Below the pieces are notes generated by a model. That model did not search any database and was not told the DNA's origin. It saw only the letters and a list, made by a program, of their open reading frames with translations. A stretch of 64,000 nt of DNA from an uncultured bacterium. GTDB lineage: Bacteria; Bacillota_I; Bacilli_A; RFN20; CAG-826. This document shows positions 2,644 through 52,782 of the stretch, one piece after another; positions within the stretch are counted from its first letter, which is position 1, and each line of letters opens with the position of its first letter. The position numbers were made by a program, and so were the translations under genes. The stretch lies in NCBI GenBank assembly GCA_949283025.1, contig CASDRB010000005.1, forward strand, positions 23,588 to 87,587, in the 5' to 3' direction.

Positions 2644-2707
2644 TTTTTGATTTATTATTAATTATTTTATATAATAACTCCGTAGATTAAAATCTAGGAG
2701 TTTTTAT

Positions 2708-4087
2708 ATGGATATACAAAACGTCAAAGGTACTCACGATGTGATATTAGATGAAGCGAATGCCTATGAATATATTGAAAATGTCATGAAAGCTATCGCT
2801 GAAAGTTATGCGTTTAAACAATTTAGAATTCCAGTTATTGAAAATAGCAATTTATTTCAACGTAGTGTTGGTGAAAGTTCTGACATAGTTAGAAAAGAAA
2901 TGTACACATTCAAGGATAAAGGTGAGCGCTTAATAACTTTACGGCCAGAATTTACAGCAGGTATTATTAGAAGTTTTGTAAACAATAAATTGTACGCAAC
3001 TAAAGATTTGCCAGTAAAGGCTTACTATGTTGGACCTGTATTTCGTTATGAAAGACCTCAATTAGGCCGATATCGTCAATTTAATCAATTCGGCATTGAA
3101 ACAATTGGAACTGATAATTTTTATCATGATGTCGAGGCAATTGTCTTGGGGTATTCGATTTTAAAATCATTAGGATTAGAAAATGTTAAAGTAAAAATAA
3201 ACACTCTTGGCGATTTGGAATCTAGGAAAAATTATAAAGAAGCTTTAAAAACTTTTTTTGAGCCTCATTTAAATAATATGTGCAGCGATTGTAAACAACG
3301 ATTCGCATTAAATCCGTTGCGAATTTTAGATTGTAAAGTTGAAGACGATAAAAAAATTATTGCTGACGCTCCAAAAATGACAAACTATTTATCAAGCGAA
3401 TCTAAAAATAGATTTAATAAAGTTATTACTTTATTAAAAGAAATTGGAGTTGATTTTGAAATAGATGATACATTGGTCCGCGGACTTGATTATTATTCAC
3501 AGACAGTTTTTGAATTTCATTACTCATCTTCAAAAGGTGTCGATTATGGTGCGATTGGCGCTGGTGGACATTACGATTCTCTTGTTAAAGAGATCGGCGG
3601 TCCGCAACTAGAAGGTGTTGGATTATCGTTTGGAATTGAAAGAGTTTATTCAGTAATGGCAGATGATGGTTTGACTGGCTTTGAAAGTGCTGGATTAGAT
3701 ATTTATGTAATGCCTATTGGTGAAGCTGAACAAGAAATTGGATTTTATTTAACTTCTAACTTGCGTCAATATGGGTTTAGTTGTGAAATTGACTTGAGTA
3801 ATTCCAAAATAGGAAGCATGCTTAAAAAGGCAAATCGTCTTCAAGCACATTTTGCTATCATCATCGGAGAAGAAGAAATTGATAGCAAAAAAGCGACTAT
3901 TAAAAATTTAAAAACTCAAGAGCAAGTAAAAATTGATTTTGATGATTTAATAAATTATTTTGATAAAGCATTTCAATTAAACGATGATCACCACGAATGT
4001 CATCATGACGATGAATGTTGTTGCCATAAAGAAAAAGATGTTGATGGACATCATTGCTGCAAACATCATAAAGGAGAAAATGAATAA
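2708..4087 (+). CDS. hisS: histidine--tRNA ligase with unusual His/Cys-rich C-terminal tail
   Basis: Class II aaRS motifs (GPVFRYERPQLGRYRQFNQFG, GGHYDSL..GVGLSFGIER). AGGAG SD 8 nt upstream. About 37 extra C-terminal residues HHECHHDDECCCHKEKDVDGHHCCKHHK. Confidence 0.9.
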   Translation: MDIQNVKGTHDVILDEANAYEYIENVMKAIAESYAFKQFRIPVIENSNLFQRSVGESSDIVRKEMYTFKDKGERLITLRPEFTAGIIRSFVNNKLYATKDLPVKAYYVGPVFRYERPQLGRYRQFNQFGIETIGTDNFYHDVEAIVLGYSILKSLGLENVKVKINTLGDLESRKNYKEALKTFFEPHLNNMCSDCKQRFALNPLRILDCKVEDDKKIIADAPKMTNYLSSESKNRFNKVITLLKEIGVDFEIDDTLVRGLDYYSQTVFEFHYSSSKGVDYGAIGAGGHYDSLVKEIGGPQLEGVGLSFGIERVYSVMADDGLTGFESAGLDIYVMPIGEAEQEIGFYLTSNLRQYGFSCEIDLSNSKIGSMLKKANRLQAHFAIIIGEEEIDSKKATIKNLKTQEQVKIDFDDLINYFDKAFQLNDDHHECHHDDECCCHKEKDVDGHHCCKHHKGENE

Positions 4088-15937: not shown

Positions 15938-16900
15938 ATGAAAACAAAATTATTTTTACCTTTAACTTTATTTAGCATCATTTTATCTGGATGCGACAAA
16001 TCAAATTCAAATATTGAAAATTATATGAAGGTCATCTCGCCAGCTGGTGCTCCGGCTATTGCTTTTTATGATCAGGCGCTGAGCAACACATTCGAGACAA
16101 ATTCGACAACATCAAATGTTTTAGCACAACTGTCAAATGATGATTATGGAATGGTGGTATTTGATTTTTATAATGGGTTAAAATCAATTAAAAAGAATAA
16201 CTCTCCGTATAAACTAGCAAAAATAATCACTGGTGGGAATTTATATTTAGTTGGTATTGACACTGATAAAGAACCAACAAAAGATAGCAAAATTGTTTCA
16301 TTTGGGGAAAATTTAATTCCAGATTTGGCATTTAAACATATATATGGTGAAGAAATTGCTAACGCCACTAAATATGTTAATGCGGTAAGTGACGCTGGAG
16401 CTGTTTTAGCAAGCGGAATGCACGAAGGCGAAAAGGTCGACTATGTCGTAGTTGCTCAACCTGTTTTGTTTAGCGTCATGAATAATCAAAATGCTCCAAC
16501 ATATGGAAAATTAAATGTAATTTCATGCTTTAAGGATGAATGGAAAGAAAAAACTGGTCAAGACGCTATTCCGCAAGCTGGCGTTTTTGTTAATTATGAT
16601 TATTATGTTAACCATAAAAATTATTTTGAAGAACAATTTGCGCTTTTAGATGAACGTATAGAAACCGCAATTGATGATCCACTAACTGTTAAGACTACTA
16701 TGGACGAACAACTTCCAAACTTAGATGATCAAGCGGCCTTTTTTGGTTTTAATTCTAATGTTGCGTACAATGTACAATCAAATAAAGACACTCCAAATGG
16801 TTTTGCTTTAGTAAGACCAGATGAAACAGTTGATATAAATGCTTTTTTTACTGTGTTAGGAGTAGAAGAAGATTATTCTGATTATATTTTAACTAAATAA
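15938..16900 (+). CDS. ABC transporter substrate-binding lipoprotein (NitT/TauT/NMT1-like)
   Basis: Lipobox LSGC after the signal peptide. About 320 aa periplasmic-binding-protein-like. Adjacent to the permease gene. Confidence 0.6.
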   Translation: MKTKLFLPLTLFSIILSGCDKSNSNIENYMKVISPAGAPAIAFYDQALSNTFETNSTTSNVLAQLSNDDYGMVVFDFYNGLKSIKKNNSPYKLAKIITGGNLYLVGIDTDKEPTKDSKIVSFGENLIPDLAFKHIYGEEIANATKYVNAVSDAGAVLASGMHEGEKVDYVVVAQPVLFSVMNNQNAPTYGKLNVISCFKDEWKEKTGQDAIPQAGVFVNYDYYVNHKNYFEEQFALLDERIETAIDDPLTVKTTMDEQLPNLDDQAAFFGFNSNVAYNVQSNKDTPNGFALVRPDETVDINAFFTVLGVEEDYSDYILTK

Positions 16901-16908
16901 TTGATTTT

Positions 16909-17685
16909 ATGAAAAAGCAAACACTACATGATTTAACAAATAATAAATGGTATAAATTCATTTTATTGTTGGTTGGAATTTCATTAGTGTTTTTAATTTG
17001 GTATATAATTTCCATTGCAATTTCTAATCCATTATTTCCAGGACCGCAAGTGGTTATCCCTGTTTTTTTCAAAAAAACATTAGTATTATCAACATATGAA
17101 GCCATATTTTATACATTATTAAGGCTTATTTTATCGTTTTCGATTAGTTTTGTTATTGCTTTTATTTTTGGCATTTTGGGCGGTCTATTTAAAACTATTA
17201 ATCTTATTTTAAAACCAATTGTCACTGTTTTAAGAACGATACCGACAGCAGCTTTAATTTTAATCTTAATAGTTTTGCTAAAGCCGACTAATGCGCTAAT
17301 AATTATTGTCTTTCTTATTATGTTTCCAATTTTATATGATGCAATCGCGACAGGTTTAATAAATGTTGATGAAAATATTAAAAAAGCTTTAAGAATAGAT
17401 TCTGGTTTACATAATCCAAAAGCTATTTTTAAAGTTATGCTACCTTGTTCGTTCCCGTATATTTTATTAGGAATTGTCCAAACGATCGGACTTGGCATGA
17501 AAGTTTCTTTGATGGCAGAAATTTTAGTCGGAAATAATTCTATTCCCGGACTCGGGATTTTGATTAAAATGTCTTATCAATATGCTTATATGGATGAAGT
17601 ATTTGCTTATTCGATATTTGCTATTATATTAATCGGCATCATTGATATAATACTTTCAACCGCAAAAAAGAAAATAAATAATTAA
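16909..17685 (+). CDS. ABC transporter permease (binding-protein-dependent transport inner-membrane component)
   Basis: 6 TM helices. EAA-like loop (ALRIDSGLHNPKAIFKVMLPCSFPYIL). Confidence 0.75.
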   Translation: MKKQTLHDLTNNKWYKFILLLVGISLVFLIWYIISIAISNPLFPGPQVVIPVFFKKTLVLSTYEAIFYTLLRLILSFSISFVIAFIFGILGGLFKTINLILKPIVTVLRTIPTAALILILIVLLKPTNALIIIVFLIMFPILYDAIATGLINVDENIKKALRIDSGLHNPKAIFKVMLPCSFPYILLGIVQTIGLGMKVSLMAEILVGNNSIPGLGILIKMSYQYAYMDEVFAYSIFAIILIGIIDIILSTAKKKINN

Positions 17686-17734
17686 AATAGAAATTTGAAA
17701 AGAAACTCTCCTATAAATAGTAGGAGGTTTTTTA

Positions 17735-18273
17735 TGGAAAATAATCAAATGAAATTTAAAACAGAACAAATTTATCAATCGATGATATCGCTGCAAGAAA
17801 AAAATGAAGTAATTAAAAAAATGGCTAATCAAGCTGAATGGATGAAAAGACAATTAGAATATATGATCTATTCATTAAGTCACAAAGTAAAATACAACTT
17901 AAGAAAAGGTGATATATTAGAAATTGATTGGGGCGTTAACGTTAATGCTGAATTTTCAAACAGACATTATGGTGTAGTTTTGCTTGATTCGAATGAAAAT
18001 AATCCATTAGTATTAGTTTGTCCATTAAAAAGTAATCATAAAGGAGCGCATCCAAAATCAGATTTAGATCTTGGAATAATTGAAGGACTAAAACACGGCA
18101 CGACAACATTAGCGGTTATAAATCAAATAAGAATGATTGATAAAATGAGAATTTATGTTCGCAAAATCATCAACGGAAAAGAATGCGAAAACGATAATTT
18201 AACGATGCCAAAAATTTATATTGATAAGATTATTAACTCATATAAATTATTGGTTGAGGGGAGATTATCATAA
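17735..18273 (+). CDS. MazF/PemK/Kid-fold protein (putative endoribonuclease toxin) with about 55-aa N-terminal helical extension
   Basis: RKGDILEIDWG..VVLLDS..LVLVCPLKS..INQIRMIDKMRI matches Kid/MazF (ERGEIWLVSL..VPVTS..DQPRTIDMKAR). AGGAGG SD before ATG 17735. Confidence 0.7.
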
Positions 18274-18277
18274 ATAT

Positions 18278-18298
18278 ATTAGTAGTTTTCTAGTAGTT
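18278..18298 (+). repeat. intergenic TAGTA-N6-TAGTA motif copy A (ATTAGTAGTTTTCTAGTAGTT)
   Basis: Starts 4 nt after the stop codon. See the motif-family finding. Confidence 0.5.
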
Positions 18299-18463
18299 AT
18301 TTATATAATATTTTTATGTGGATAAACTATAAAATTATTTAATAACAAGATTTTAATTTTATATATTAAACACAAAATATATTAGTTTCAATCAATATTT
18401 TTTATATTTTAGTTAACATAATAGACATTATGCGAAGTTTATATTTTTTATTATTTACAAATA

Positions 18464-19567
18464 TTAATCCAAATAAAATTTAAAACATTCCAAAGTTAGT
18501 TTATTAGCTATATCTTTTCCATTTAAAATTAAAAAGGCTCTATTCTCTTTTAGCACAAATTTAAAACCTTCGTCTAAATTATTCATCAGTGAGCAAATCA
18601 TTTCTTTAGAATCATATCCTCTTAACGGATCAACTTTATCTGCGGCATAAACTGCTTTACCAATCGAACTCATGTTCGCTTTCCCTGTCGCATGGAATCT
18701 TATTGCATCTAATATACTTTCATCATTGATATTAAAATCATGTTGTGCGATATAGGCAGAATAAAATTGATGATATAGTTTTTTATCTATTGGCATGTAT
18801 TTGGAATATTTATTTTCGATATCGCTGATAATACTTTTTGGTATGTTTTTTCCTATATCGTGCAGCAATCCAGCAATGTAATATTTATTTGATTGACCAA
18901 TTTTATTCTGACTCGCTATTTTTTTTGCTAACATAGCAACAGATTTACTATGGTTAAATCTTTTTTCATCAATATATGTTTTTACTTTTTCTAAAAAATA
19001 TAAATTGTGATCGTTAATATATTCTAAAACGCTATCACAGACATCAATGTCTTGCAAATTTCTAATTTCATTCGATGATGCATCCACCATTTTTACATCT
19101 TTTAATGTTTCGAAATGATATTTATTAAAATTTTCCAAATTAAAATGACAATTAGGACGAGGATAATGAAGCAATCTAATTGAAGATGCAATTTCTTCAG
19201 CATTTTTCCACAAGTGAAATTTATCTAATTGATCTGTACCTAATAAAAAGTATAAGTCAATATTTTCTTTTTCATATTTATTTAAAAAATATCTTACTGA
19301 CAAATATGTATAATCAGGACCAATTTGCTTTAATTCAAAATCATCAACGAATAGGTTAACATAATCTTTAATAGCAAGTTTAATCATTTCAATTTTGTCG
19401 CAAGGATTAGAAGATCCAATTTTCCAAACACTTTCTTTATTAGGTAAAAAAATGATACAGCAAACATTTGGACCACCTAAAACACGTTGAGTTTCCAGTG
19501 CCATATTGATATGTCCATTATGGATAGGATCAAACGATCCACCAAAAATAACTATTCTTTTTTTCAT
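18464..19567 (-). CDS. nadD: fused nicotinate-nucleotide adenylyltransferase (NadD) / HD-domain YqeK protein
   Basis: N-terminal GGSFDPIHNGH nucleotidyltransferase motif. C-terminal HD domain (LLHDIGK). Both sit in one 367-aa ORF. Confidence 0.8.
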   Translation of the reverse strand: MKKRIVIFGGSFDPIHNGHINMALETQRVLGGPNVCCIIFLPNKESVWKIGSSNPCDKIEMIKLAIKDYVNLFVDDFELKQIGPDYTYLSVRYFLNKYEKENIDLYFLLGTDQLDKFHLWKNAEEIASSIRLLHYPRPNCHFNLENFNKYHFETLKDVKMVDASSNEIRNLQDIDVCDSVLEYINDHNLYFLEKVKTYIDEKRFNHSKSVAMLAKKIASQNKIGQSNKYYIAGLLHDIGKNIPKSIISDIENKYSKYMPIDKKLYHQFYSAYIAQHDFNINDESILDAIRFHATGKANMSSIGKAVYAADKVDPLRGYDSKEMICSLMNNLDEGFKFVLKENRAFLILNGKDIANKLTLECFKFYLD

Positions 19568-26959: not shown

Positions 26960-26989
26960 ATTAGTATTTATCTAGTAGTTTTTTAGTAT
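26960..26989 (+). repeat. intergenic TAGTA-repeat motif copy B (ATTAGTATTTATCTAGTAGTTTTTTAGTAT; three TAGTA units)
   Basis: Starts 2 nt after the plsY stop. Shares the exact 17-mer TAGTAGTTTTTTAGTAT with copy C. Confidence 0.5.
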
Positions 26990-52761: not shown

Positions 52762-52782
52762 ATACTAAAAAACTACTAATTT
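52762..52782 (-). repeat. intergenic TAGTA-N7-TAGTA motif copy C (minus-strand reading ATTAGTAGTTTTTTAGTAT)
   Basis: Lies between the lepA stop and the -35 of the downstream gene. Identical 17-mer to copy B. Confidence 0.5.

What the first reader, a model, noticed from the sequence alone, without database searches (positions are those of the whole stretch)
17735..18273. Solitary MazF/PemK/Kid-fold protein with an N-terminal extension and no antitoxin gene
The C-terminal 120 aa match the Kid/MazF ribonuclease fold closely, including the signature NQIRMIDKMRI (compare DQPRTIDMKAR in Kid). There is no MazE/PemI/Kis-type ORF upstream; only 49 nt separate the gene from the ABC permease. None is downstream either. 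Instead the protein carries about 55 extra N-terminal residues predicted to be helical (MENNQMKFKTEQIYQSMISLQEKNEVIKKMANQAEWMKRQLEYMIYSL). This could be a cis-fused antitoxin, an autoinhibitory domain, or a repurposed non-toxic RNase. The long non-coding region downstream is an alternative place for an RNA antitoxin.
Basis: partly seen in the sequence, partly recalled or inferred. Interest (0 to 1): 0.5.

Follow-up and report, generated by a model that had tools for sequence, protein, structure and literature searches.

The report
Solitary long-form MazF gene beside dif
This is a real MazF/PemK-type RNA-cutting "toxin" gene with a built-in N-terminal helix and no antitoxin gene. It is not a mobile addiction module: it is a conserved single-copy gene that sits right next to the chromosome's dimer-resolution site (dif) in a whole lineage of uncultured gut bacteria.

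Summary
Residues 58-144 pass Pfam PemK_toxin (30.2 bits against a cutoff of 23.1). The AlphaFold2 model matches solved MazF structures. Residues 20-49 form a confident helix. No antitoxin ORF flanks the gene here or in 58 related species.

Three things are new:
- The gene is single-copy, strictly syntenic, and more conserved (median 54.5% identity) than its housekeeping neighbours nadD-yqeK, yhbY, yqeH and yqeG (39-48%). It is vertically inherited, not mobile.
- The "long non-coding region" is the replication terminus. It holds a dif site (18411-18438) at the GC-skew switch, plus generic intergenic motifs. It has no conserved RNA structure, so an RNA antitoxin is not supported.
- The N-terminal extension is not unique. 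"Long-form" solitary PemK proteins with the same aromatic-x6-aromatic helix motif occur on plasmids, prophages and integrative elements, and also lack MazE-type neighbours.

Best reading: a probably active, domesticated long-form MazF RNase whose N-terminal helix replaces a separate antitoxin. That cis-control step is inferred, not shown. Rivals are a trans partner encoded elsewhere, or a narrow-specificity housekeeping RNase. Interest is moderate.

The parts
17707..17727 (+). Hairpin TCTCCTA-N7-TAGGAGG followed by T6 and the ATG. Its 3' arm is the Shine-Dalgarno sequence. It looks like a terminator for the permease gene and sequesters the ribosome-binding site (RBS) of the MazF-like gene.
   Evidence: Terminator-like hit. 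The fold of the -45..+3 region is -14.2 kcal/mol, second most stable of 51 genes in the window (mean -4.2, sd 3.6). Comparable CCTCC...GGAGG hairpins occur in many relatives, with flanking bases co-varying. The SD is fully paired in 19/55 loci against 7/51 control genes. The feature is frequent but not universal.
17734..18273 (+). Coding sequence (CDS) of the long-form PemK/MazF-family protein, 179 aa.
17734..17904 (+). N-terminal extension (aa 1-57). Residues 1-19 are variable and low-confidence. Residues 20-49 (nt 17791-17880) form an amphipathic helix. The conserved motif is Q-L-E-W-I-K-R-Q-L-E-Y (aa 33-43), with W36 and Y43 invariant and R39 present in 115/116 sequences.
   Evidence: AF2. 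Alignments A2 and A4. The motif is retained as aromatic-x6-aromatic in plasmid and phage homologues.
17905..18165 (+). PemK/MazF beta-barrel domain (aa 58-144). Invariant residues are E73, R77, H78, P97, K99, [S/T]100, Q131, D136, K137 and R139.
   Evidence: Pfam. hhalign to B. subtilis MazF places H78 at Arg25 and K99 at Thr48.
18211..18255 (+). C-terminal helix (aa 160-174), corresponding to the C-terminal helix of MazF.
18280..18296 (+). TAGTAG-N5-TAGTAG direct repeats (11-nt period), 7 nt after the stop codon. This is a generic gene-end/intergenic motif of the lineage, not specific to this gene.
   Evidence: Conserved at this position in 40/40 aligned loci. Also found at window 26962-26989 and 52762-52778, 4 hits against 0.05 expected. 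There are 103 sites in 642 kb: 101 are intergenic, and 99 follow a co-oriented gene, at a median of 21 nt after that gene's stop codon.
18317..18325 (+). TGTGGATAA (DnaA-box-like) motif. It is conserved at this position between the repeats and dif. Its function is unknown.
   Evidence: Nearly invariant TGTGGA-AA columns in A3. The window-wide count is not significant, 5 against 2.0 expected.
18411..18438 (-). Chromosome dimer resolution site dif. The minus strand reads ACTTCGCATAA-TGTCTA-TTATGTTAACT (XerC arm - centre - XerD arm).
   Evidence: Matches E. coli dif at 23/28 and B. subtilis dif at 22/28; both reference sequences are verified in PMC3025954. It is unique in the window. The arms are invariant and the central hexamer is variable (21 variants) in relatives. 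It sits at the GC-skew sign change (+0.12 to -0.12) and at the point where genes converge. An inserted element begins directly at its edge in L003.

Best explanation
The gene encodes a genuine member of the PemK/MazF endoribonuclease family. It belongs to a 'long-form' subfamily defined by a 50-75-residue N-terminal extension whose core is an amphipathic helix with two conserved aromatic residues (W36 and Y43 here). Elsewhere, members of this subfamily sit alone, without a MazE-type antitoxin gene, on plasmids, prophages and integrative elements.

In this lineage of uncultured low-GC gut and rumen Bacilli, one copy has become a fixed, vertically inherited, single-copy chromosomal gene. It is the last gene of one replichore and ends about 140 nt from the dif site at the replication terminus.

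Mechanism, by level of support:
- Shown: the fold, the family membership, the solitary state, the synteny and the strong purifying selection.
- Inferred from invariant residues at the positions of the MazF catalytic pair (R77/H78 at Arg25; K99 with S/T100 at Thr48) and of the base-recognition motif (N130-Q131-I-R): the protein is still an active, sequence-specific single-strand RNA endonuclease that acts as a dimer.
- Inferred only from comparative evidence: the N-terminal helix packs its conserved W-R-Y face onto the barrel or across the dimer and gates the RNA groove. One polypeptide then carries both toxin and control element, as in EzeT, and needs no antitoxin gene. An SD-sequestering hairpin further limits its translation.

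The downstream non-coding region is terminus DNA (dif plus generic motifs), not part of the toxin system.

The confidence of 0.5 is for the whole statement: about 0.9 for the descriptive part and about 0.35-0.4 for cis-control by the helix.
For: Family and fold:
- Pfam PemK_toxin is above the gathering score.
- The AF2 model matches solved MazFs by Foldseek, with TMt about 0.7.
- hhalign to B. subtilis MazF gives E=6e-6.

Active-site conservation:
- E73, R77, H78, P97, K99, Q131, D136, K137 and R139 are invariant in 116 sequences, and position 100 is only S or T.
- Arg25 and Thr48 are the catalytic pair in Bacillus MazF, and Lys-for-Arg and Ser-for-Thr variants are active in M. tuberculosis MazFs (PMC7354611).

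Solitary and vertical:
- 58 GTDB species assemblies each carry one locus.
- Gene order is xerD-deoB-(+/- binding protein and permease)-gene -> <- nadD/yqeK-yhbY-yqeH-yqeG in essentially all of them.
- Upstream gaps are mostly 40-220 nt, too short for a MazE. There is no conserved small ORF.
- Median identity is 54.5%, against 39-48% for nadD-yqeK, yhbY, yqeH and yqeG.

N-terminal helix:
- pLDDT is 86-93 over aa 21-60.
- W36 and Y43 are invariant.
- A search of 1.84 billion representatives with the extension alone finds only this fused family and fragments of it.
- The aromatic-x6-aromatic motif and the extension recur in homologues from a Bacillus plasmid, an Acinetobacter plasmid, a Fusobacterium plasmid and chromosomal elements, staphylococcal prophages and a streptococcal satellite. 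None has a MazE/PemI/RHH/AbrB neighbour.

Precedent for a cis antitoxin: EzeT (PMC4803016).

RBS hairpin.

dif and terminus.
Against: - No residue-level view of where the helix docks was available. The prediction was monomer-only and no coordinates were returned.
- The extension shows no homology to MazE/EndoAI, to any Pfam family or to any PDB sequence.
- The extension is mildly basic (median net charge +2), unlike the acidic RNA-mimicking tails of many MazE-type antitoxins.
- The canonical catalytic Arg and Thr are both replaced at the aligned columns (H78, K99), so activity is not guaranteed.
- One Fusobacterium plasmid homologue has a 111-aa ORF with a weak helix-turn-helix (HTH) match 4 nt upstream. 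It could be a partner.
- Two of the 58 loci carry a nonsense or frameshift lesion. This could be a sequencing error or a sign the gene is dispensable.
- The RBS hairpin is seen in only about a third of loci by a strict criterion.
- All relatives are metagenome-assembled genomes (MAGs); no expression or phenotype data exist.
Confidence: 0.5

Rival explanations
1. Housekeeping RNase with no need for neutralisation. The protein is a narrow-specificity or low-activity endoribonuclease that has been recruited for routine RNA processing or decay in a reduced genome. The N-terminal helix serves dimerisation, substrate selection or partner binding rather than inhibition.
For: Conservation is core-gene-like, synteny is strict and the gene is single-copy. 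The active site is remodelled and invariant, with R77-H78-K99-S/T100 in place of the canonical Arg/Thr pair. The helix is not acidic.
Against: The same architecture is carried by plasmids, prophage lysogeny modules and integrative elements. That is where toxins and defence genes live, not housekeeping enzymes. The RBS-sequestering hairpin suggests expression must be kept low.
Confidence: 0.25
2. Orphan toxin with an unlinked antitoxin. The protein is neutralised in trans by a protein encoded elsewhere, as MazF-mx of Myxococcus is by the transcription factor MrpC.
For: There is a precedent for a solitary mazF neutralised by an unlinked regulator (PMC4803016; PMC2701414). Only 64 kb of this genome could be inspected.
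Against: The N-terminal extension would then be unexplained. Distant homologues on small plasmids (8-16 kb) and in prophages also lack a recognisable partner, so the module must be self-sufficient when it moves.
Confidence: 0.15
3. Type III-like system. An RNA made from the downstream non-coding region, for example the UAGUAG repeats directly after the stop codon, binds and neutralises the MazF-fold protein, as ToxI does for ToxN.
For: TAGTAG-N5-TAGTAG repeats lie 7 nt after the stop codon and are conserved at that place in all aligned relatives. From my own knowledge, ToxN has a Kid/MazF-like fold.
Against: The repeats are generic. There are 103 sites in 642 kb, almost all just after the stop codon of unrelated genes such as parC and the gene before dxs. 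There is no Rfam hit. RNAalifold predicts zero consensus pairs over 40 sequences. The rest of the gap is dif and DNA-level motifs. Plasmid and phage homologues were not seen with such repeats.
Confidence: 0.03
4. Not an RNase at all. This is a degenerate MazF/CcdB-fold protein co-opted for a DNA- or terminus-related role, such as an accessory factor for dif/Xer/FtsK/topoisomerase IV or for replication termination. That would explain its invariant position next to dif.
For: The gene ends a median of 146 nt from dif in 54/56 loci. xerD and parC are close by. Conserved DNA motifs (TGTGGAWAA and others) lie between the gene and dif. From my own knowledge, Tus and RTP genes sit next to their Ter sites. 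MazF can bind single-stranded DNA (PDB 5cr2).
Against: The whole region is syntenic, so adjacency may be inherited gene order and nothing more. Sequence affinity is to the RNase branch: the IDK-R, N-Q-I-R and E73 motifs are shared with B. subtilis MazF, not with CcdB. Homologues on mobile elements have no dif context. E. coli also has a toxin gene (hipA) 76 bp from dif, with no known functional link.
Confidence: 0.07

Closest known systems
B. subtilis MazF/EndoA (YdcE) and S. aureus MazF (type II mazEF, PF02452)
   Same: Same fold (Foldseek TMt about 0.7) and same Pfam family. Shared motifs are G-D/E near the start of strand 1, the loop glutamate (E73 = Glu20), and N/E-Q-I-R-x-I-D-K-x-R. From my own knowledge, EndoA is also a chromosomal, vertically conserved gene in Bacilli.
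   Different: Only 17-19% identity. There is an extra 57-residue N-terminal extension with a conserved helix. There is no mazE gene upstream. His78 (with Arg77) stands at the catalytic Arg25 column, and Lys99 (with Ser/Thr100) at the Thr48 column.
'Long-form' solitary PemK/MazF proteins of mobile elements (PHROG phrog_1412, labelled 'antitoxin mazE-like'). Examples are Staphylococcus phages StB27/77/P954 orf2, Streptococcus satellite Javan378, and plasmids of Bacillus weihaiensis, Acinetobacter lwoffii and Fusobacterium.
   Same: N-terminal extension of 50-75 aa before the PemK domain. Aromatic-x6-aromatic motif in the helix, His at the Arg25 column in most, and P-L-x-S at the Thr48 region. 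No MazE-type neighbour. The phrog_1412 profile aligns to aa 3-105 at E=1.4e-17. Long PemK-like phage proteins also match the model structurally.
   Different: Those are on plasmids, prophage lysogeny modules and integrative elements, and are patchily distributed. This one is a fixed chromosomal gene with strict synteny across a lineage. Identity is only 22-34%. Phage versions carry a large helical insertion. Lys99 and Arg77 are specific to the chromosomal clade. None of them appears to have been studied experimentally: the papers found only list them by annotation.
EzeT of E. coli (zeta toxin with a cis-acting N-terminal antitoxin domain) and other fused toxin-antitoxins such as CapRel
   Same: A single polypeptide with no antitoxin gene. 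An N-terminal segment of about 80 aa precedes the toxin domain. This is the proposed logic of intramolecular neutralisation (PMC4803016).
   Different: A different toxin fold (UNAG kinase or toxSAS, against the MazF RNase). For EzeT the cis inhibition was shown by delta-N83 toxicity and trans rescue. Here it is only inferred.
MazF-mx of Myxococcus xanthus (solitary mazF)
   Same: A chromosomal mazF without an adjacent mazE, integrated into host physiology (PMC4803016; PMC2701414).
   Different: From my own knowledge, MazF-mx is of canonical length and is neutralised in trans by MrpC. No N-terminal extension is reported for it.
hipBA next to dif in E. coli K-12
   Same: A toxin gene whose 3' end lies within about 100 nt of the chromosomal dif site. 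dif is 76 bp downstream of the hipA stop codon. Here the distance is 137 nt.
   Different: HipA is a kinase with an adjacent antitoxin, hipB. No functional link to dif is known, and the parallel may be coincidence.

Membership tests
PemK/MazF/Kid toxin family (PF02452) | Sequence match to the family profile above the curated threshold | tested here: met
   30.2 bits against gathering score 23.1, aa 58-144. All 116 relatives checked carry the same precomputed domain, with two exceptions.
PemK/MazF/Kid toxin family (PF02452) | SH3-like beta-barrel fold with a C-terminal helix | tested here: met
   AF2 model pLDDT 84.6. 52 PDB chains match with E<=1e-3; the 50 listed are MazF, MoxT, YdcE, a B. 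cereus mRNA interferase and Kid.
PemK/MazF/Kid toxin family (PF02452) | Catalytic Arg (Arg25 in B. subtilis, Arg29 in E. coli) in the strand1-strand2 loop | tested here: inconclusive
   hhalign and MAFFT both put invariant His78 at the Arg25 column, with invariant Arg77 one residue before it. Most long-form homologues have His there, and the Acinetobacter one has Arg. A basic or general-acid residue is present, but it is not the canonical one.
PemK/MazF/Kid toxin family (PF02452) | Catalytic Thr/Ser (Thr48 in B. subtilis, Thr52 in E. coli) | tested here: inconclusive
   Invariant Lys99 occupies the aligned column. The next residue is always Ser or Thr (T 65, S 51 of 116). Long-form homologues read P-L-[S/G/T]-S.
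PemK/MazF/Kid toxin family (PF02452) | Sequence-specific endoribonuclease activity and growth inhibition | not testable with these tools
   Needs expression and in vitro cleavage assays.
Type II mazEF/pemIK toxin-antitoxin operon | Adjacent, co-transcribed antitoxin gene (MazE/PemI/Kis; AbrB or RHH fold) | tested here: not met
   48-nt upstream gap and 190-nt downstream gap with no ORF. In 55 relatives most upstream gaps are 40-220 nt. There is no conserved small ORF family.
Type II mazEF/pemIK toxin-antitoxin operon | Mobile, patchy, multi-copy distribution typical of toxin-antitoxin loci | tested here: not met
   One locus in each of 58 assemblies, always in the same gene order.
Fused (cis) toxin-antitoxin, EzeT/CapRel type | Extra domain in the same polypeptide, and absence of a separate antitoxin gene | tested here: met
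Fused (cis) toxin-antitoxin, EzeT/CapRel type | The extra domain neutralises the toxin domain (delta-N is toxic, with trans rescue) | not testable with these tools
   Only indirect support: the extension is found only when fused, and it goes together with lack of an antitoxin gene in distant homologues.
Fused (cis) toxin-antitoxin, EzeT/CapRel type | The extra domain is homologous to the cognate free antitoxin | tested here: not met
   hhalign of the extension profile against B. subtilis EndoAI gives probability 0.15% (the antitoxin sequence was verified against PDB 4me7). No Pfam or PDB hit.
Type III toxin-antitoxin (ToxIN-like) | Tandem repeat array encoding a structured antitoxin RNA next to the toxin gene | tested here: not met
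   The only repeats are 11-nt-period TAGTAG units, which are generic gene-end motifs. No consensus RNA structure. No Rfam family.
Chromosomal dif site (XerC/XerD target) | 28-bp site with two 11-bp arms around a 6-bp centre that matches known dif sites | tested here: met
   ACTTCGCATAA-TGTCTA-TTATGTTAACT matches E. coli dif at 23/28 and B. subtilis dif at 22/28.
Chromosomal dif site (XerC/XerD target) | Single copy, at the GC-skew switch and the point where genes converge | tested here: met
   Unique in 64 kb. The skew flips at about 18 kb. Convergent genes are shown. xerD lies 4 kb away.
Chromosomal dif site (XerC/XerD target) | Recombination by Xer recombinases | not testable with these tools
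   Indirect support: a filamentous-phage-like element is inserted exactly at the edge of the site in one strain.

The most novel reading that the evidence does not exclude
The protein is a lineage-specific housekeeping endoribonuclease, derived from a mobile single-chain toxin, with a dedicated cellular task. One candidate task is cutting or binding the lineage's own UAGUAG-N5-UAGUAG gene-end repeats, and so defining mRNA 3' ends or operon processing sites. Another is a function tied to the terminus/dif region beside which it is invariably encoded. Either would be a domesticated MazF with a defined physiological substrate and a built-in regulator.
Probability: 0.07. Interest if true: 0.8.

Novelty: new variant of a known kind. 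Interest (0 to 1): 0.45.

Why it matters
MazF toxins are the textbook two-gene toxin-antitoxin RNases. A widespread long-form that carries its own N-terminal control helix and needs no antitoxin gene would extend the 'fused toxin-antitoxin' principle to the MazF family. So far that principle has been shown only for other toxin folds, such as EzeT and CapRel.

This chromosomal clade also gives an unusually clean case of a toxin-type gene that became a conserved core gene. It is more constrained than essential neighbours and holds a fixed place beside dif. That makes it useful for asking what chromosomal toxins are for.

Practically, the work reassigns the 'empty' downstream region as the replication terminus with its dif site. 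That is a useful landmark for these uncultured genomes. It also exposes an unexplained gene-end repeat motif.

Tried and rejected
- Rfam scan of 17000-19000 at E<=10: only a chance snoRNA hit.
- RNAalifold on 40 downstream gaps: zero consensus pairs. A structured RNA antitoxin is therefore rejected.
- Six-frame ORF clustering of the downstream gaps: only rsfS in some species, plus pseudo-ORFs that are translations of dif. A hidden antitoxin ORF is rejected.
- Remote homology of the N-terminal extension: PDB profile search gave noise only. hhalign against EndoAI gave nothing. Pfam scan of 44 extensions gave scattered coiled-coil noise. A profile search of 1.84 billion representatives found only the same fused family and truncated fragments.
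- PADLOC on this protein and on seven homologues: no hit.
- NCBIfam: only a far sub-threshold MazF hit.
- phmmer against PDB with the full protein: nothing.
- Foldseek against afdb50: library unavailable.
- I first read TGTGGATAA together with the TAGTAG repeats as possible origin-like elements (DnaA box plus DnaA-trios). I rejected this because the GC skew marks the terminus, not the origin, and because the repeats are generic.
- I considered an Acinetobacter-style 'dif module' flanked by two dif-like sites. Only one site is present per locus.
- I considered the TAGTAG repeats as a promoter for a small RNA. At dxs they abut the start codon directly, which does not fit.
- Literature searches for N-extended, solitary or fused MazF found no study of this subfamily.
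Full report
**1. The observation**

The ORF is real, but it starts at 17734, not 17735. Translating from 17735 gives 23 stops, and translating from 17734 gives a clean 179-aa product ending at 18273. A strong AGGAGG lies at 17722-17727.

Pfam PemK_toxin matches residues 58-144 at 30.2 bits, above the curated 23.1. NCBIfam gives only a far sub-threshold MazF hit. PADLOC gives nothing, and a sequence search of the PDB gives nothing.

An AlphaFold2 model was built on 116 homologues. It has mean pLDDT 84.6 and pTM 0.77, with a long helix at residues 20-49, a beta-barrel, and a C-terminal helix at 160-174. Foldseek against the PDB returns S. aureus, B. subtilis, B. anthracis, M. tuberculosis and E. 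coli MazF, and Kid, with target-normalised TM-score of about 0.7.

So the fold claim is right. 'Matches closely' is too strong, however. hhalign to B. subtilis MazF gives 19% identity, probability 85% and E=6e-6, and hhalign to E. coli MazF is not significant.

The upstream gap to the permease is 48 nt. The downstream gap to the convergent nadD-yqeK gene is 190 nt. Neither holds a credible ORF.

**2. Relatives and context**

A search of 5.8 billion proteins found 168 homologues. All 120 listed are 159-228 aa, so the extension is a family trait. Where they have names, they are called 'PemK/MazF family toxin' from Bacilli or Erysipelotrichaceae MAGs.

A scan of one genome per GTDB species found 58 loci in 58 different assemblies. 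All are uncultured gut or rumen Bacilli, labelled Bacilli bacterium, Erysipelotrichaceae, Coprobacillus sp. CAG:826 or 'Mollicutes'. From memory this corresponds to GTDB order RFN20; I did not test that.

Gene order is essentially invariant: (dxs-dinB-)xerD-deoB-[optional regulator, lipoprotein, permease]-MazF-like gene, then, convergent, (rsfS-)nadD/yqeK-yhbY-yqeH-yqeG-parC.

Upstream gaps are mostly 40-220 nt, too short for an antitoxin gene. No conserved small ORF exists in the downstream gaps.

Against the window's proteins, the MazF-like protein has a median identity of 54.5%. The comparison values are 42% for nadD-yqeK, 48% for yhbY, 41% for yqeH, 39% for yqeG, 57% for xerD and 71% for deoB.

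This is the signature of a vertically inherited gene under strong purifying selection, not of a mobile addiction module. Two loci carry a nonsense codon or a frameshift. These could be errors or real losses.

**3. The downstream 'long non-coding region'**

The gaps after the stop codon are conserved at the DNA level across species whose proteins are only about 50% identical (1409 blastn pairs). The alignment of 40 gaps shows discrete blocks:

- (i) Two to four TAGTAG units with an 11-nt period, right after the stop codon.
- (ii) ATGTGGAWAAS, which resembles a DnaA box.
- (iii) About 90 variable nt containing a weak GA-N5-ATC motif.
- (iv) An invariant GTTAACATAA-N6-TTATGCGAAGT.

The reverse complement of block (iv) is ACTTCGCATAA-TGTCTA-TTATGTTAACT. 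It matches E. coli dif (GGTGCGCATAA-TGTATA-TTATGTTAAAT) at 23/28 positions and B. subtilis dif at 22/28. Both reference sequences were checked in PMC3025954.

Other evidence agrees that this is dif:

- The site is unique in the window.
- Its arms are invariant, while the central hexamer has 21 variants among relatives.
- GC skew flips from +0.12 to -0.12 at about 18 kb, where the genes converge.
- In one strain (L003) a filamentous-phage-like element (Rep_OBD protein, P-loop morphogenesis-like protein, small membrane proteins) is inserted exactly at the edge of the site.

The region is therefore the replication terminus with its dif site. The MazF-like gene is the last gene of its replichore, ending a median of 146 nt from dif in 54 of 56 loci.

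There is no Rfam hit and no consensus RNA structure (zero pairs).

The TAGTAG repeats are not specific to this gene. The window has 4 hits (1 mismatch allowed) at three intergenic sites against 0.05 expected. Over 642 kb of related sequence there are 103 sites, of which 101 are intergenic although 91% of the sequence is coding. Of those intergenic sites, 99 follow a co-oriented gene, at a median of 21 nt after its stop codon, whatever comes next. Examples are after parC and directly before the dxs start codon.

They are an unexplained, lineage-wide gene-end motif.

**4. The N-terminal extension**

Within the family the first 30 or so residues vary. Residues 33-46 carry the motif Q-L-E-W-I-K-R-Q-L-E-Y, with W36 and Y43 invariant and R39 present in 115 of 116 sequences. 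The spacing puts W36, R39/Q40 and Y43 on one face of the helix, next to a hydrophobic stripe (read directly from the sequence). The model is confident here, with pLDDT 86-93.

A profile of the extension alone, searched against 1.84 billion representatives, found 15 proteins. All are this fused family or truncated fragments of it. It has no match in Pfam, in PDB sequences, or to B. subtilis MazE/EndoA-I (hhalign probability 0.15%; the antitoxin sequence was verified). Its net charge is slightly positive, unlike acidic MazE tails.

The architecture, however, is older than this clade:

- PHROG phrog_1412 (labelled 'antitoxin mazE-like', probably a misnomer) aligns to residues 3-105 at E=1.4e-17.
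- tblastn finds homologues of 172-257 aa on plasmids of Bacillus weihaiensis, Acinetobacter lwoffii and Fusobacterium, in the lysogeny modules of staphylococcal prophages (StB27, 77, P954, 23MRA), and in a streptococcal satellite.
- In all of them the PemK domain starts at residue 50-75.
- They keep an aromatic-x6-aromatic pair in the helix.
- None has a MazE/PemI/RHH/AbrB neighbour. The one possible exception is a 111-aa weak-HTH ORF in Fusobacterium.
- A profile of the plasmid forms finds 410 proteins of 115-302 aa, nearly all 160 aa or longer, in mobile-element contexts such as TopB-resolvase-zeta toxin, or next to an integrase.
- Long PemK-like phage proteins also match the model structurally.

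I found no experimental study of this subfamily. Papers only list such genes by annotation.

**5. Active site**

Both MAFFT and hhalign place invariant His78 (preceded by invariant Arg77) at the column of the catalytic Arg25 of Bacillus MazF. They place invariant Lys99 (followed by an obligatory Ser or Thr) at the column of Thr48. Glu73 (= Glu20), Asn130-Gln131 (= Glu78-Gln79) and the I-D-K-x-R motif are kept.

PMC7354611 documents Arg25 and Thr48 as the catalytic pair, and reports that Lys-for-Arg and Ser-for-Thr variants are functional in mycobacterial MazFs.

Most long-form homologues have His at the Arg column and P-L-[S/G/T]-S at the Thr region. Strict invariance of polar residues at these places argues for a working, if remodelled, catalytic centre. 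This is an inference.

**6. Expression signal**

Immediately before the start codon lies the hairpin TCTCCTA-N7-TAGGAGG followed by T6 (17707-17727). Its 3' arm is the Shine-Dalgarno sequence.

The -45..+3 region folds at -14.2 kcal/mol, second most stable of 51 genes in the window. Similar CCTCC...GGAGG hairpins, with co-varying flanks, recur in many relatives. By a strict criterion the SD is fully paired in 19 of 55 loci, against 7 of 51 control genes.

This fits a terminator that also limits translation of the next gene. It is suggestive of tight expression, but it is not universal.

**7. Most likely mechanism**

Shown:
- It is a PemK/MazF-fold protein of a long-form subfamily.
- It is solitary, single-copy and syntenic, under strong constraint, and adjacent to dif.

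Inferred:
- It is an active dimeric single-strand RNA endonuclease.
- The N-terminal helix is the element that makes a separate antitoxin unnecessary, most simply by packing its conserved aromatic face onto the barrel or across the dimer and gating the RNA groove, as the N-terminal domain of EzeT quenches its toxin domain (PMC4803016).
- The ancestor was a self-contained toxin or defence gene on a mobile element. It may have arrived at dif on an integrating element of the kind still seen there in L003.
- It was then retained for a host function.

I put about 0.9 on the descriptive part and about 0.35-0.4 on cis-inhibition specifically.

Rivals:
- A housekeeping RNase whose helix serves dimerisation or specificity: 0.25.
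- An unlinked trans antitoxin, as for MazF-mx/MrpC: 0.15.
- A terminus or DNA role: 0.07.
- An RNA antitoxin: 0.03.

**8. Comparison and novelty**

It passes membership of PF02452 by score and fold. It fails the definition of a type II mazEF operon, since it has no antitoxin gene and is not mobile. It is a candidate for, but not a shown member of, the fused toxin-antitoxin class.

A toxin gene sitting hard against dif has a parallel in E. coli K-12, where dif lies 76 bp downstream of hipA. No functional meaning is known there, and here the adjacency may simply be frozen gene order.

I rate it a new variant of a known kind, of moderate interest. The architecture is widespread but unstudied. This clade adds a clear case of domestication and a fixed terminus location.

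**Caveats**

- All relatives are MAGs.
- The structure prediction was monomer-only, and coordinates could not be inspected.
- No activity or expression data exist.

Noticed in passing
window 18280-18296 (+), 26962-26989 (+), 52762-52778 (-), 10644 (+); related loci e.g. L009 9080-9133 (-), L065 516-545 (+): TAGTAG-N5-TAGTAG(-N5-TAGTA) repeats with an 11-nt period form a lineage-wide intergenic motif. There are 103 sites in 642 kb: 101 are intergenic, and 99 lie a median of 21 nt after the stop codon of a co-oriented gene. Some abut the next start codon (dxs) with no Shine-Dalgarno sequence in between. Three repeats put TAG in all three frames. Function is unknown: gene-end signal, processing site or protein-binding iteron are all possible.
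   Followed up: partly
L003 4662-8525 (ena:ERZ27261510 k99_80043), compared with L001: A strain-specific insertion of more than 3.8 kb starts exactly at the XerC-arm edge of dif. It encodes a Rep_OBD protein, a 286-aa P-loop protein and several small membrane proteins. It looks like a filamentous-phage-like element integrated at dif (an IMEX) in a Gram-positive gut bacterium. L057 also has 5.2 kb inserted between dif and nadD.
   Followed up: partly
window 18317-18325; alignment A3 columns about 101-112: A DnaA-box-like motif (A)TGTGGA(A/T)AA(C/G) is conserved at a fixed place between the gene and dif in about 40 species. Extra copies lie on both sides of dif in some of them. A weaker GA-N5-ATC motif lies about 25 nt before dif. 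These could be terminus-related protein-binding sites.
   Followed up: no
window 15938-17685; loci L009, L028-L034 and others: The 'ABC' cassette upstream consists only of a lipoprotein (substrate-binding-like) and a permease, with no ATPase gene next to it. The cassette, in some species with a cNMP-binding regulator, is present in about half of the related species and absent in the rest, where deoB directly precedes the MazF-like gene.
   Followed up: no
window 18464-19567 (-): nadD (nicotinate-nucleotide adenylyltransferase) and yqeK (HD hydrolase) are fused into one 367-aa protein. The fusion is conserved across the related loci. rsfS follows it in some species but not in this window.
   Followed up: no
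L061 5914-6054; L072 5986-6540: Two of the 58 species representatives carry a disrupted copy of the MazF-like gene: an in-frame stop at the codon for residue 47, and a frameshift after residue 97. These are either assembly errors or evidence that the gene can be lost.
   Followed up: partly
window 2663-2710 (upstream of ORF 2708-4087): This is the only other gene in the window with a comparably stable hairpin that sequesters the ribosome-binding site: AACTCCGTAGATTAAAATCTAGGAGTT-TTTAT-ATG, -15.6 kcal/mol.
   Followed up: no
L075 (E. coli K-12 NC_000913.3 1590750-1590777): In E. coli K-12 the chromosomal dif site lies 76 bp downstream of the stop codon of the toxin gene hipA. This parallels the toxin-next-to-dif arrangement seen here.
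   Followed up: yes
PHROG phrog_1412; Staphylococcus phage StB27 orf2 (L079 2423-3166): The phage family annotated 'antitoxin mazE-like' actually contains a PemK_toxin domain preceded by an N-terminal helix, and in staphylococcal phages it is split by a long helical insertion. The label looks wrong.
   Followed up: partly
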